Part shown: positions 8,127-15,549 of the stretch, one piece after another | How the letters are laid out: every line of letters begins with the position of its first letter | Position numbering within the stretch: the first letter of the stretch is position 1 | Source: the human T2T-CHM13v2.0 reference genome, Homo sapiens | Direction: 5' to 3' (one strand) | Length of the DNA stretch: 64,000 bases | Assembly: GCF_009914755.1 (NCBI RefSeq) | Contig: NC_060930.1 | Notes under the pieces: generated by a model | The model's database searches: none | The model's input: the letters and a program-made list of their open reading frames with translations, nothing else | Told to the model about the DNA's origin: nothing | Made by a program: the position numbers and the translations under genes

Positions 8127-8277
8127 CTGGATTTTCCCATGAAGGTCTGGAAATCCACCAATGAAGACAGATCCTGATTTTGGCAGGGGTTTTCCGAGTA
8201 CATGATTGATAGATTCGCATATTTGTGTATTCCTCCCTAAAATAGTCAGCTCAGCGTTACATGGATCCAATTCTTGC
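8127..8277 (-). CDS. EYS: EYS coding exon (probably exon 29): (R)QELDPCNAELTILGRNTQICESINHVLGKPLPKSGSVFIGGFPDLHGKIQ
   Basis: Acceptor ttctttcttaaatggttacAG (8278-8279) and donor CAG|GTATTT (8125-8126). 151 bp, phase 2 to 0, in frame with the 92-bp exon (AG+G = Arg). Contains the LamG-type 'VFIGG' motif. Confidence 0.93.
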
Positions 8278-8918
8278 CTGTAACCATTTAAGAAAGAAAT
8301 GGTTTTAGTATGAGTCATATAAACATTTATCTGACAAATTAATTAAACTATTATCAAAAGAATAATTTAAGTAAATAGATTATTTCACAATAAAACAAAG
8401 CCAGAAGCAGATTAATCTGTTATAAATTAGAATCCTTAATGCTTTAAGTACATAAACACAAAGTTACAGTTTGACAAAACAACAAATTATAGCAATCAAC
8501 CAATGAAATAAATAAATCCTGATAAACAGATCTTTCTCAATTGTAACTGAAACAATGATGGATTATAATATTCCATTTTAGCTTTTTACATTATTAAATT
8601 TTCTGTATGAGTGAAAAATATTAAAAAGAATCAAATTTCAATGCAGTCATACAGTGTACAATATATACTTAGGTGGAAAACAGATATATTGCAGACAGTA
8701 ATTAGTTGTAGAAATATAAATTATACCAATAAGCAAAGCACAGAAAAATTAACAAATGAATAAATCAAATATAACTTAATTAGGAAGATCAGAGTAATAA
8801 TTTCCATATGCCCATTCTTTTAGAAAGATGAAAAAGACAAAATACTTTGTCAATACTTTAACATGTAGATATGCATGTGTCATTTACTCTAGCCATATGT
8901 TTAACTAATTGTTTAATC

Positions 8919-9120
8919 CAGAGATTGGCAAACTATACCCTAGGCCAAATCTTGCCTGTCATCTCTAAGTAAATAAACTTTAATTGGCACACAGCCATAT
9001 GTTTCTTTACATATAGTCTATGGGTTTTTTCATAACAGAATTGAATAATTGAAACAAGACTTTAAGTCCCAAAAGCCCAAAAATATTTACTATCTAACCC
9101 TTATAGAAAAAGTTGGTAGA
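8919..9120 (+). mobile_element. MER58A-like hAT-Charlie MITE
   Basis: cagagattggcaaacta...ggccaaatc...aaataaactttaattggcacacagcca...aaaatatttactatct...agaaaaagtt follows the MER58A layout. Confidence 0.75.
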
Positions 9121-9197
9121 TGCACTATTCAATTTATCTATTAACCAAGCAAGTAAGCTTTATCATAATCCTTTTCAAAATAATAGTACACATTCTT

Positions 9198-10103
9198 GGG
9201 AGGAGCCAAGATGGCTGAATAGGAACAGCTCCGGTCTACAGCTCCCAGCGTGAGCGACGCAGAAGACGGGTGATTTCTGCCATTTCCATCTGAGGTACCG
9301 GGTTCATCTCACTAGGGAGTGCCAGACAGTGGGCGCAGGTCAGTGGGTGTGCACACCGTGCACCAGCGGAAGCAGGGCGAGGCATTGCCTCACTTGGGAA
9401 GTGCAAGGGGTCAGGGAGTTCCCTTTCCTAGTCAAAGAAAGGGGTGACACACGGCACCTGGAAAATCGGGTCACTCCCACCCGAATACTGCGCTTTTCCA
9501 ACGGGCTTAAAAAACGGCACATCACGAGATTATATCCCGCACCTGGCTCGGAGGGTCCTACGCCCACGGAGTCTCGCTGATTGCTAGCACAGCAGTCTGA
9601 GATCAAACTGCAAGGAGGCAGCGAGGCTGGGGGAGGGGTGCCCGCCATTGCCCAGGCTTGATTAGGTAAACAAAGCAGCCAGGAAGCTCCAACTGGGTGG
9701 AGCCCACCACAGCTCAAGGAGGCCGGTCTGCCTCTGTAGGCTCCACCTCTGGGGGCAGGGCACGGACAAACAAAAAGACAGCAGTAACCTCTGCAGACTT
9801 AAATGTACCTGTCTGACAGCTTTGAAGAGAGCAGTGGTTCTCCCAGCACGCAGCTGGAGATCTCAGAACGGGCAGACTGCCTCCTCAAGTGGGTCCCTCA
9901 CCCCTGACCCCCGAGCAGCCTAACTGGGAGGCACCCCCCAGCAGGGGCACACTGACACCTCACAGGGCAGGGTATTCCAACAGACCTGCAGCTGAGGGTC
10001 CTGTCTGTTAGAAGGAAAACTAACAAACAGAAAGGACATCCATACCAAAAACCCATCTGTACATCACCATCATCAAAGACCAAAAGTAGATAAAACCACA
10101 AAG
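9198..10103. promoter_or_regulatory. L1 5'UTR: CpG-rich sense promoter with YY1 motif, plus antisense promoter (ASP) directed toward EYS exon 29
   Basis: AAGATGGC YY1 core near 9208 and many retained CpGs. The ASP is an established property of L1PA 5'UTRs; activity at this copy is not shown. Confidence 0.7.
9340..9648 (-). CDS. L1 ORF0 (antisense ORF), open for 102 aa: MAGTPPPASLPPCSLISDCCASNQRDSVGVGPSEPG...
   Basis: ATG at 9648 in strong Kozak context (GGGCAATGG). The N-terminus matches primate L1 ORF0. Both internal donors are present, at +106 (CAG|GTGCGG) and +191 (CAG|GTGCCG). Confidence 0.75.
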   Translation of the reverse strand: MAGTPPPASLPPCSLISDCCASNQRDSVGVGPSEPGAGYNLVMCRFLSPLEKRSIRVGVTRFSRCRVSPLSLTRKGNSLTPCTSQVRQCLALLPLVHGVHTH

Positions 10104-11121
10104 ATGGGGAAAAAACAGAACACAAAAAATGGAAACTCTAAAAAGCAGAGCGCCTCTCCTCCTCCAAAGGAACGCAGTTCCTCACCAGCAACGGAACAAA
10201 GCTGGATGGAGAATGACTTTGACGAGCTGAGAGAAGAAGGCTTCAGACGATCAAATTACTCTGAGCTACGGGAGGACATTCAAACCAAAGGCAAAGAAGT
10301 TGAAAACTTTGAAAAAAATTTAGAAGAATGTATAACTAGAATAACCAATACAGAGAAGTGCTTAAAGGAGCTGATGGAGCTGAAAACCAAGGCTCGAGAA
10401 CTACGTGAAGAATGCAGAAGCCTCAGGAGCCGATGCGAATCAACTGAAAGAAAGGGTATCAGTGATGGAAGATGAAATGAATGAAATGAAGCGAGAAGGG
10501 AAGTTTAGAGAAAAAAGAATAAAAAGAAAGGAGCAAAGCCTCCAAGAAATATGGGACTATGTGAAAAGACCAAATCTACGACTGATTGGTGTACCTGAAA
10601 GTGATGGGGAGAATGGAACCAAGTTGGAAAACACTCTGCAGGATATTATCCAGGAGAACTTCCCCAATCTAGCAAAGCAGGCCAACGTTCAGATTCAGGA
10701 AATACAGAGAACGCCACAAAGATACTCCTCGAGAAGAGCAACTCCAAGACACATAATTGTCAGATTCACCAAAGTTGAAATAAAGGAAAAAATGTTAAGG
10801 GCAGCCAGAGAGAAAGGTCGGATTACCCTCCAAGGGAAGCCCATCAGACTAACAGCAGATCTCTCGGCAGAAACCCTACAAGCCAGAAGAGAGTGGGGGC
10901 CAATATTCAACATTCTTAAAGAAAAGAATTTTCAACCCAGAATTTCATATCCAGCCAAACTAAGCTTCATAAGCGAAGGAGAAATAAAATACTTTACAGT
11001 CAAGCAAATGCTGAGAGATTTTGTCACCACCAGGCCTGCCCTAAAAGAGCTCCTGAAGGAAGCGCTAAACATGGAAAGGAACAACCCGTACCAGCCGCTG
11101 CAAAATCATGCCAAAATGTAA
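10104..11121 (+). pseudogene. L1 ORF1p, frameshifted
   Basis: MGKKQN...QNHAKM split over two frames by a +1 insertion near 10438 (cgatgcgaatcaac). Confidence 0.92.
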
Positions 11122-11184
11122 AGACCATCAAGACTAGGAAGAAACTGCATCAACTAACGAGCAAAATAACCAGCTAACATCATA

Positions 11185-15014
<3,830 letters not shown>

Positions 15015-15549
15015 ACAATGAGATCACATGGACACAGGAAGGGGAATATCACACTCTGGGGACTGTTGTCGGGTTGGGGGGAGGGGGGAGGGATAGCATT
15101 GGCAGATATACCTAATGCTAGATGAGGAGTTAGTGGGTGCAGCGCACCAGCATGGCACATGTATACATATGTAACTAACCTGCACAATGTGCACATGTAC
15201 CCTAAAACTTAAAGTATAATAAAAAAAAAAGAAAAAAAAACAAAAAAACAAAATAATAGTACACATATTATAAAAGACACCTACATAGCATCCAACAATC
15301 AATGCCATTCTGTTCCATGAATATGTGACATTCTGGTTTTCATATATTTATATTGAATTATGGCATACATAATAAAGAGGGTAAAGGATAAAGCTCTATG
15401 AAATATTATATTGTGAACATAGTCAAGTAACCACTACCCAGGACAAAAGGCACAAAATTACTACCTAGACTACTCCACCACAACATACACAAGCATGCAC
15501 ACACATGCACAGACACACACGCACACACATACTCTCTCTCACAACTCTT

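What the first reader, a model, noticed from the sequence alone, without database searches (positions are those of the whole stretch)
8127..9648. Predicted in-frame L1 ORF0-EYS fusion from an antisense L1 promoter ~1 kb upstream of EYS exon 29
Seen in sequence: the full-length L1 starts at 9198 on +, so its antisense promoter fires in the EYS sense direction. ORF0 has an intact strong-Kozak ATG at 9648 and no stop. Donor 2 (TCC AG|GTGCCG, last exonic base 9458) lies 191 nt from the ATG, which is phase 2. EYS exon 29 starts in phase 2 (G CAA GAA). A 1180-nt intron (9457-8278) would give ...VTRFS-R-QELDPCNAEL..., meaning 63 ORF0 residues fused in frame to the EYS C-terminus from about R1976 (numbering from memory). 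The junction even regenerates the native Arg codon. Established: L1PA ASPs drive chimeric transcripts, and ORF0 donors at +106 and +191 form fusion proteins with nearby exons. Inference: this could be a young, ape-restricted internal promoter producing a C-terminal LamG/EGF EYS isoform without a signal peptide. It would most plausibly be expressed where L1s are demethylated (germ line, pluripotent cells, tumours) and would bypass variants in exons 1-28.
Basis: partly seen in the sequence, partly recalled or inferred. Interest (0 to 1): 0.85.

Follow-up and report, generated by a model that had tools for sequence, protein, structure and literature searches.

The report
Untested L1 ORF0-EYS fusion prediction
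An old, coding-dead L1 retrotransposon sits backwards in an EYS intron and could, on paper, splice its small antisense ORF0 in frame onto the next EYS exon, but nothing found here shows that this transcript is made, and its protein would probably not work as EYS.

Summary
A full-length L1 (9198-15248, + strand, 18-bp target-site duplication, poly(A)) lies antisense in the EYS intron, 921 nt upstream of the exon at 8277-8127. ORF0 has a strong-context ATG at 9648. A GT donor lies after base 9458 (+191, phase 2). The exon starts in phase 2, so the junction would be in frame and would re-create AGG (Arg).

None of this is special to this copy. Of the 30 nearest L1 5'UTR copies in the same genome, 23 have the ATG, an open frame and the +191 GT. 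A given donor fits a given exon phase one time in three.

Donor 1 (+106) is slightly stronger and gives a stop inside the exon. The product would lack a signal peptide and probably start inside a LamG domain.

No text I could search or read reports it. Paper reading closed, so several tables were not seen.

Verdict: a correct but ordinary prediction, a candidate new member of the known class of L1 antisense-promoter/ORF0 chimeras. Most likely it is silent or a rare by-product.

The parts
9198..15248 (+). Full-length L1 (about 6051 nt including poly(A) 15220-15248). The 5'UTR is about 906 nt, up to the first sense ATG-ORF at 10104. ORF1 and ORF2 are both broken into pieces.
   Evidence: Sequence. 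ORF list. Pfam: Tnp_22_trimer, Transposase_22 and Tnp_22_dsRBD in 10465-11118, Exo_endo_phos in 11185-11796, RVT_1 in 12473-13447. More than 4000 first-look candidate 5'UTR copies in the same genome; the 39 non-self copies scored are 95-96% identical.
9176..9193 (.). 5' copy of the 18-bp target-site duplication. Four bases (TCTT) separate it from the L1 5' end.
   Evidence: Identical 18-mer at 15249-15266, directly after the poly(A).
15249..15266 (.). 3' copy of the target-site duplication.
9649..9797 (-). Presumed antisense-promoter / start-site zone (L1 positions about 450-600). It holds no ATG upstream of ORF0.
   Evidence: Inferred from print: ESTs from L1HS and L1PA2-8 start within the first 600 bp of the 5'UTR, antisense (PMC4908685 passages). 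No ATG on the - strand in 10000-9649. Three positions here differ from at least 5 of 6 related copies. Activity was not tested.
9340..9648 (-). ORF0, 102 codons plus stop. ATG at 9648 with G at -3 and G at +4.
   Evidence: No Pfam family. The same 102-aa length occurs in 18 of the 30 nearest copies.
9537..9545 (-). Donor 1, CAG|GTGCGG. Last exonic base 9543, +106 from the ATG, phase 1. Out of frame with the EYS exon.
   Evidence: crude U1 duplex energy -7.2 kcal/mol. GT present at this place in 26 of 30 copies.
9452..9460 (-). Donor 2, CAG|GTGCCG. Last exonic base 9458, +191, phase 2. In frame with the EYS exon.
   Evidence: -6.8 kcal/mol. GT present in 28 of 30 copies.
8278..9457 (-). Predicted 1180-nt intron of the chimera: 260 nt of L1 antisense sequence plus 920 nt of A+T-rich EYS intron. 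It holds 54 AG sites (that count also takes in the exon's first bases, down to 8200), no AATAAA, and two ATTAAA (8984, 8917).
8127..8277 (-). Acceptor TTACAG|G, first base is codon position 3.
   Evidence: Hub annotation. Single open frame. Fits c.5928-2A>G.
9311..9313 (-). L1-internal acceptor-like site CCCTAG|TGAG (AG 9313-9312, first base after it 9311). A possible competitor.
   Evidence: It ranks 9th of 54 AG sites by a crude pyrimidine measure; the native exon acceptor ranks 11th.
9392..9483 (-). Two further GT sites in ORF0: CGG|GT after 9481 (+168, phase 0) and CAA|GT after 9394 (+255, phase 0). Both are out of frame with the exon.

Best explanation
This is a fixed, coding-dead, full-length L1 of L1PA2/L1PA3 grade, roughly 10 million years old. 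It inserted by ordinary target-primed reverse transcription into the EYS intron upstream of the c.5928 exon, antisense to EYS.

Like most of its closest relatives, it still carries the standard ORF0 cassette on its antisense strand: a promoter zone, an ATG in strong context, an open frame, and GT donors at +106 and +191.

If the antisense promoter fires, Pol II would start upstream of 9648. The RNA could then splice from 9458 to the native acceptor at 8278/8277 and read 63 ORF0 codons, Arg, and then EYS from about residue 1977 to its normal stop.

That capacity is shown by sequence. Its use is not shown. I judge that in normal tissues the element is silenced. Any transcript from it would be a rare, opportunistic by-product of hypomethylated cells, shared among several donors of which only one is in frame. 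The in-frame protein has no signal peptide and begins inside a LamG domain, so it has no EYS-like function.
For: - Anatomy and frame.
- L1 identity and broken ORFs.
- The cassette is the family default. Among the 30 nearest copies, the ATG is present in 30, GT at +192 in 28, and the frame is open to the donor with GT in 23.
- Age: the star-tree private branch is 1.74% at all sites and 0.89% with CpG columns masked, over 2 kb against 7 relatives.
- CpG decay is as advanced as in relatives: 29 CpG in the first 900 nt, observed/expected 0.40, against 28-38 in seven other copies. This gives no sign of a germ-line-unmethylated promoter (inference).
- Donor 1 is no weaker than donor 2 by crude U1 pairing energy (-7.2 against -6.8 kcal/mol), and it gives a stop in the exon.
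- EYS needs its N-terminal signal peptide, and all retinal transcripts contain it (PMC8127272 passages).
- A LamG profile start maps to the exon two upstream: Pfam PF02210 positions 1-31 of 126, E 0.11, below the cut-off.
- Negative look-ups:
  - EYS is absent from the 10 held supplementary files of the EST catalogue of 988 genes.
  - The brain/glioma table holds one EYS row, and it comes from another element, an L1PA7 of 6607 bp.
  - In dermal fibroblasts an exon-36 primer gave no product (PMC6202841 passages).
  - Five full-text searches gave no report.
- Base rate: 57 of about 3200 genic ORF0 loci were seen fused to an exon (PMC4908685 passage citing Denli 2015).
Against: - No expression data of any kind could be consulted, so 'silent' is a prior, not an observation.
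- The arrangement is close to ideal for a chimera: same orientation as the gene, 921 nt from a validated acceptor, no AATAAA in the intron, and no upstream ATG in the 352 nt before ORF0.
- Donors 1 and 2 rank 2nd and 3rd of 74 GT sites on that strand, and are about as strong as the native donor of the same EYS exon (-7.2 kcal/mol) by the same crude measure.
- Hominoid-specific L1s are reported as widely expressed in pluripotent cells. I saw only the abstract in the listing for PMC12791003.
- A signal-peptide-less C-terminal EYS transcript from another internal start (exon 37) does exist, so such isoforms are tolerated.
- One database paper on TE-initiated transcripts in cancer (PMC13184619) contains 'EYS' once and an 'L1PA' word once. 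I could not read it.
Confidence: 0.65

Rival explanations
1. The antisense promoter is active in some hypomethylated cells, but the RNAs are non-productive. They use donor 1 (+106) or the phase-0 GT sites (+168, +255), splice to cryptic or L1-internal acceptors, or end in the A+T-rich intron. This gives out-of-frame, NMD-prone or non-coding L1-EYS chimeras.
For: - Donor 1 has G at +5 and slightly better U1 pairing (-7.2 against -6.8 kcal/mol).
- A GT after 9481 scored best (-9.6 kcal/mol) in the crude measure.
- The donor-1 product stops 10 codons after the junction, inside the exon.
- 10 of 54 AG sites have a pyrimidine fraction at least as high as the native acceptor, and there are two ATTAAA signals.
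- About 73% of EST-supported L1 antisense transcripts were not predicted to encode a peptide (PMC4908685 passage).
Against: - No transcript data.
- The native acceptor is a proven one with the preferred CAG|G.
- The duplex-energy measure ignores register and context, and is not a validated splice predictor.
Confidence: 0.17
2. The L1 acts as a young internal EYS promoter. It yields a translated, in-frame ORF0-EYS C-terminal isoform of about 63 + 1169 residues, if EYS is 3144 aa (a length I recall, not checked). It would be made in germ line, pluripotent cells or tumours.
For: - Frame and junction are correct.
- Strong ATG context and no upstream ATG.
- The class is documented, including fusion products detected in cells.
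- The ORF would run to the native EYS stop, so NMD is not expected (inference).
- An exon-37-start EYS isoform without a signal peptide is a precedent.
Against: - No report in any text searched.
- Only one of at least four usable GT sites is in frame.
- Base rate of 57 in about 3200.
- EGF and LamG modules are secretory-pathway domains, the fusion lacks a signal peptide, and it would probably begin mid-LamG (weak).
- ORF0 protein is reported to sit next to nuclear PML bodies (PMC7746726 passage).
Confidence: 0.12
3. There is no promoter use. Instead, pieces of the antisense L1 are occasionally taken up as a pseudo-exon into EYS pre-mRNA, for example from the acceptor at 9312/9311 or 9428/9427 to a downstream GT. 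The element would then matter only as a source of cryptic splicing.
For: - Acceptor-like sites with good pyrimidine tracts at 9427, 9392 and 9311, and GT sites downstream of them.
- Antisense L1s are known to hold cryptic splice sites (PMC4908685 passage).
Against: - No data.
- The GT sites downstream of those acceptors are weak (-5.1 kcal/mol or weaker).
- No such EYS pseudo-exon came up in the searches, which did not target this question specifically.
Confidence: 0.04

Closest known systems
L1 ORF0-proximal exon fusions (Denli et al. 2015, Cell; known to me here only through citing papers)
   Same: A primate L1PA 5'UTR, an antisense ORF0 with an ATG in strong context, two internal GT donors, a host exon downstream in the same orientation, and an in-frame junction for one donor.
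   Different: Those 57 cases were observed as RNA or protein. This one is only predicted. ORF0 here is 102 codons, against the 70 aa quoted for the described ORF0. I could not check whether EYS is in their table, because the paper is not held.
L1 antisense-promoter chimeric transcripts (LCTs) such as L1-MET (abstract of bioRxiv 10.1101/2020.09.01.276808 in the listing; catalogue in PMC4908685)
   Same: An intronic full-length L1PA antisense to the gene, acting as an alternative promoter that skips upstream exons. Hypomethylation-dependent according to reviews.
   Different: No transcript evidence here. EYS is not among the 988 genes of the EST catalogue as far as the held supplement text shows.
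L1PA7-EYS chimeric transcript row in Pinson et al. 2022 (PMC9396940, supplementary file 2)
   Same: An L1 on the + strand inside EYS (- strand), listed as the source of a chimeric read cluster.
   Different: A different element: labelled L1PA7, 6607 bp, at other coordinates in that paper's assembly. The window's element is 6051 bp. Support in only one sample column.
EYS 'fibroblast-type' isoform 5 (Takita 2019 as cited in review PMC8127272; Seko 2018, PMC6202841)
   Same: An internal start, only 3' exons, LamG/EGF content, and no signal peptide.
   Different: It starts between exons 36 and 37, far downstream of this L1. No L1 or ORF0 part is described in the passages I read. It is experimentally detected, whereas the present chimera is not.

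Membership tests
Full-length primate L1 (L1PA) insertion | Target-site duplication and 3' poly(A) | tested here: met
   18-bp duplication at 9176-9193 and 15249-15266; poly(A) 15220-15248.
Full-length primate L1 (L1PA) insertion | ORF1 and ORF2 (endonuclease, reverse transcriptase) homology in the right order on one strand | tested here: met
   Pfam hits with E from 1e-20 to 9e-63 for the ORF1 domains, 1e-10 for the endonuclease and 2e-44 for RVT_1. The frames are interrupted.
Full-length primate L1 (L1PA) insertion | Subfamily assignment (L1PA2 or L1PA3) by diagnostic positions, or by presence in other primates | not testable with these tools
   Only a divergence estimate is available: 1.74% at all sites and 0.89% with CpG masked for the private branch. 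No repeat library or primate genomes were on hand.
ORF0-bearing L1 5'UTR | Antisense ATG in strong context with an open frame through the donors | tested here: met
   ATG at 9648 with G at -3 and G at +4; 102 codons open.
ORF0-bearing L1 5'UTR | Two splice donors inside ORF0 | tested here: met
CAG|GT after 9543 and CAG|GT after 9458, kept in 26 and 28 of the 30 nearest copies.
ORF0-bearing L1 5'UTR | Active antisense promoter | not testable with these tools
   No expression, CAGE or methylation data. Three positions in the presumed promoter zone differ from at least 5 of 6 related copies.
L1 antisense-promoter chimeric transcript / ORF0-exon fusion | Host exon downstream in the same orientation with a usable acceptor | tested here: met
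   The EYS exon 8277-8127 lies 921 nt from the L1 5' end, with acceptor TTACAG|G.
L1 antisense-promoter chimeric transcript / ORF0-exon fusion | Reading-frame continuity | tested here: met
   Met for donor 2. Not met for donor 1 or for the GT sites at +168 and +255.
L1 antisense-promoter chimeric transcript / ORF0-exon fusion | Observed spliced RNA starting in the L1 | not testable with these tools
   The literature look-ups found none for this element. Several relevant supplements and Denli 2015 were not seen.
EYS isoform 5 (fibroblast-type C-terminal isoform) | Start between exons 36 and 37 | tested here: not met
   The L1 lies upstream of the exon that begins at c.5928. The fibroblast start lies between primers at cDNA 7140 and 7286.

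The most novel reading that the evidence does not exclude
In some hypomethylated human cell type (early embryo or pluripotent cells, male germ line, or tumours), this ape-lineage L1 does fire antisense. It would then make a translated ORF0-EYS protein: an ape-specific, intracellular, signal-peptide-less LamG/EGF protein that carries the ORF0 N-terminus. Such a protein could act as a tumour or germ-line antigen, or have a role unrelated to the retinal matrix function of EYS.
Probability: 0.08. Interest if true: 0.5.

Novelty: new member of a known kind. Interest (0 to 1): 0.22.

Why it matters
If the junction were found, it would add one more L1-driven alternative start to a major retinitis pigmentosa gene. 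It would also give a second signal-peptide-less C-terminal EYS transcript beside the exon-37 one. That could matter for interpreting RNA-based diagnostics (reads over 3' exons in non-retinal tissue) and for lists of TE-derived tumour antigens.

It would not rescue upstream EYS mutations, because the product cannot enter the secretory pathway as EYS does.

As it stands, it is one of probably hundreds of equally valid sequence-only predictions genome-wide. There are more than 4000 first-look candidate copies of this 5'UTR, most of the nearest ones carry the cassette, and one in three phase matches per donor is expected.

Tried and rejected
- Pfam on the single exons. The c.5928 exon (50 aa) and the 30-aa exon gave nothing at E up to 1. 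Only the exon two upstream gave a sub-threshold Laminin_G_2 match.
- PDB sequence search with the 50-aa exon peptide gave one chance hit at E 0.69. The ESM Atlas gave no usable hit. The claim that the junction falls inside a LamG domain therefore stays an inference.
- A pattern search for a second ORF0 start in the window found only the one at 9618-9653.
- Papers not held: Denli 2015, Speek 2001, Isackson 2011, Matlik 2006. The published donor positions and start sites could therefore not be checked.
- The search of earlier findings was not open.
The supplements of PMC12791003 and PMC10619931 (not sent) were not seen. Lanciano 2024, the pan-cancer ASP paper, the long-read CAGE paper and the text of TEITbase (PMC13184619) were not attempted after that. 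Any of them might list this locus.
- I did not check whether the held supplement texts of PMC4908685 and PMC9396940 were cut when stored.
- I considered and rejected the idea that the in-frame junction and the re-created Arg codon are meaningful coincidences. Both donors end in AG, as do most exons, and phase matching is 1 in 3.
- I did not search the genome for the spliced junction (a retrocopy test), because that would need a joined sequence.
Full report
**What is there**

The window is human chr6 (T2T), with EYS on the minus strand (hub table). Between 9000 and 10000 the G+C content jumps from about 0.28 to 0.46-0.59.

- The plus strand from 9198 reads as the 5' end of an L1 (GGGAGGAGCCAAGATGG...).
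- The element ends in a poly(A) at 15220-15248.
- It is flanked by a perfect 18-bp target-site duplication at 9176-9193 and 15249-15266.
- Pfam finds the three L1 ORF1 domains, the endonuclease and the reverse transcriptase, in the right order on the plus strand.
- The frames are broken. ORF1 is split into two overlapping ORFs and ORF2 into at least three pieces of 200 aa or more.

It is therefore a complete but coding-dead L1, about 6051 nt long, antisense to EYS. Its 5' end lies 921 nt upstream of the EYS exon at 8277-8127.

On the minus strand the ATG at 9648 has G at -3 and G at +4.

- The frame is open for 102 codons, to a TGA at 9342-9340.
- CAG|GTGCGG has its last exonic base at 9543, which is +106 and phase 1.
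- CAG|GTGCCG has its last exonic base at 9458, which is +191 and phase 2.
- The EYS exon is open in only one frame, with its first G as the third base of a codon. The upstream exon ends in AG, so the native codon is AGG.
- Joining 9458 to 8277 removes 1180 nt and gives 63 ORF0 codons, AGG, and then the native EYS frame with no stop in the exon.
- Joining 9543 to 8277 gives a stop 10 codons after the junction, inside the exon.
- The numbering R1976 fits the published acceptor variant c.5928-2A>G (14 papers; passages in PMC11588300). I did not verify the exon number.

The one nuance is that ORF0 does have a stop, downstream of both donors.

**Is it more than chance?**

No. I fetched the nearest 5'UTR copies from the same genome. 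The first look gave 4431 and 4296 candidates, 40 were scored each time, and the non-self copies scored were 95-96% identical.

Among the 30 copies analysed, the window's own included:

| Feature | Copies |
|---|---|
| ATG present | 30 |
| GCAATGG context | 29 |
| GT at +107 | 26 |
| GT at +192 | 28 |
| Open to the second donor, with the GT | 23 |
| 102-aa ORF0 | 18 |
| 71-aa ORF0 | 4 |

The cassette is the default state of this L1 lineage. Only the element's position matters. A given donor matches a given exon phase one time in three, and the ORF0 GT sites between them cover all three phases. The 're-created Arg' follows simply from both upstream sequences ending in AG.

**Age**

- Over the first 2 kb, the private branch of the window copy in a star-tree fit against seven relatives is 1.74% at all sites and 0.89% with CpG columns masked. 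One relative, L004, is an outlier at 8-10% and was kept in the fit.
- With neutral rates that I recall (about 0.1-0.17% per million years), this is of the order of 10 million years. That is L1PA2/L1PA3 grade and compatible with 'ape-restricted'.
- The relatives were chosen for similarity, which biases the figure, and no primate genome was available.
- The 5'UTR holds 29 CpG in 900 nt (observed/expected 0.40), at the low end of the 28-38 seen in the other seven copies. I read this as no sign of a germ-line-unmethylated promoter. This is an inference.

**How it would work, and what competes**

Published passages state the following.

- L1HS and L1PA2-8 start antisense RNAs within the first 600 bp of the 5'UTR (PMC4908685).
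- ORF0 has two donors and can fuse to downstream exons (PMC4859970; PMC13517631).
- Fusion products are detected in cells, and ORF0 protein sits next to PML bodies (PMC7746726).
- 57 of about 3200 genic ORF0 loci were seen fused.

Points in favour of use here:

- There is no ATG in the 352 nt upstream of ORF0.
- There is no AATAAA in the predicted intron.
- The acceptor is a proven one.

Points against:

- By a crude U1-pairing energy, donor 1 (-7.2 kcal/mol) is slightly better than donor 2 (-6.8). A GT after 9481 (phase 0) scores -9.6. The native EYS donors score -7.2 to -11.0.
- Ten of 54 AG sites have a pyrimidine fraction at least as high as the native acceptor, among them L1-internal sites at 9427, 9392 and 9311.
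- Two ATTAAA signals lie in the intron.

These measures are crude and are not validated predictors.

**What the protein would be**

- The EYS review describes an N-terminal signal peptide with EGF repeats, and a C-terminal half rich in LamG domains. All retinal transcripts contain the signal peptide (PMC8127272). The fusion has none.
- Pfam places positions 1-31 of the 126-position Laminin_G_2 profile at the end of the exon two upstream (E 0.11, below the cut-off). The junction would then fall at about profile position 60, inside the domain. This is an inference from a weak match. Searches with the exon peptide alone gave nothing.
- A cytosolic or nuclear protein that starts in the middle of a LamG domain and carries many EGF modules is unlikely to fold or to replace EYS. 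'Bypassing variants in exons 1-28' is therefore not a functional prospect.

**Evidence for or against expression**

None is direct.

- EYS does not occur in the 10 held supplementary files of the EST catalogue of 988 genes.
- The brain/glioma table of PMC9396940 has one EYS row, from a different element (L1PA7, 6607 bp).
- In dermal fibroblasts an exon-36 primer gave no product, while exon 37 did. That defines the known 'fibroblast-type' start further downstream (PMC6202841).
- Full-text searches gave nothing relevant by title:
  - EYS with 'L1 antisense promoter' gave 1 paper.
  - EYS with 'chimeric transcript' and 'LINE-1' gave 2 papers.
  - Fused names such as L1PA2-EYS gave 0 papers.
  - ORF0 with EYS gave 0 papers.
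- One open lead remains. The TEITbase paper holds 'EYS' once and an 'L1PA' word once.
Denli 2015 is not held.

**Verdict**

This is a correct, well-argued, but ordinary sequence-level prediction in a known class. I put about 0.65 on 'silent, or a rare non-functional by-product'. Interest is low to moderate until a junction read is shown.

Noticed in passing
window 9198-9366: NCBI's repeat mask for this L1 starts at 9367. The first 169 nt of the element, which include the end of ORF0 and the L1-internal acceptor-like site, are unmasked although they are clearly L1.
   Followed up: partly
window 9340-9648; loci L009-L038: ORF0 comes in length classes among the 30 nearest copies. 18 have 102 aa and 4 have 71 aa; the 71-aa copies carry CAG|GTGCGT at the second donor. 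The rest have other lengths: six are shorter and one is 150 aa. Reviews quote 70 aa for ORF0, so this lineage has a longer ORF0 than the described one.
   Followed up: partly
L004 (G000 C13:50293912-50297413): This copy is 95.5% identical over the ORF0 region, but it is 8-10% from all seven others over the first 2 kb. It may be a mosaic or rearranged element.
   Followed up: no
window 9194-9197: Four bases (TCTT) lie between the 5' target-site duplication and the first L1 base. They are either filler added at insertion or divergence of the target copy.
   Followed up: no
window 9458/8277 junction (predicted): Because the junction residue is Arg, trypsin would cut the fusion into a 3-residue peptide and a peptide identical to native EYS. 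Standard tryptic proteomics cannot detect this junction (from the translation).
   Followed up: yes
outside the window (EYS, another intron): Supplementary file 2 of PMC9396940 lists a chimeric read cluster from a different L1 (L1PA7, 6607 bp, + strand) inside EYS, supported in one sample column.
   Followed up: partly
outside the window (EYS exons 36-37): The known signal-peptide-less 'fibroblast-type' EYS transcript starts between exons 36 and 37. Whether that start is itself repeat-derived was not examined.
   Followed up: no
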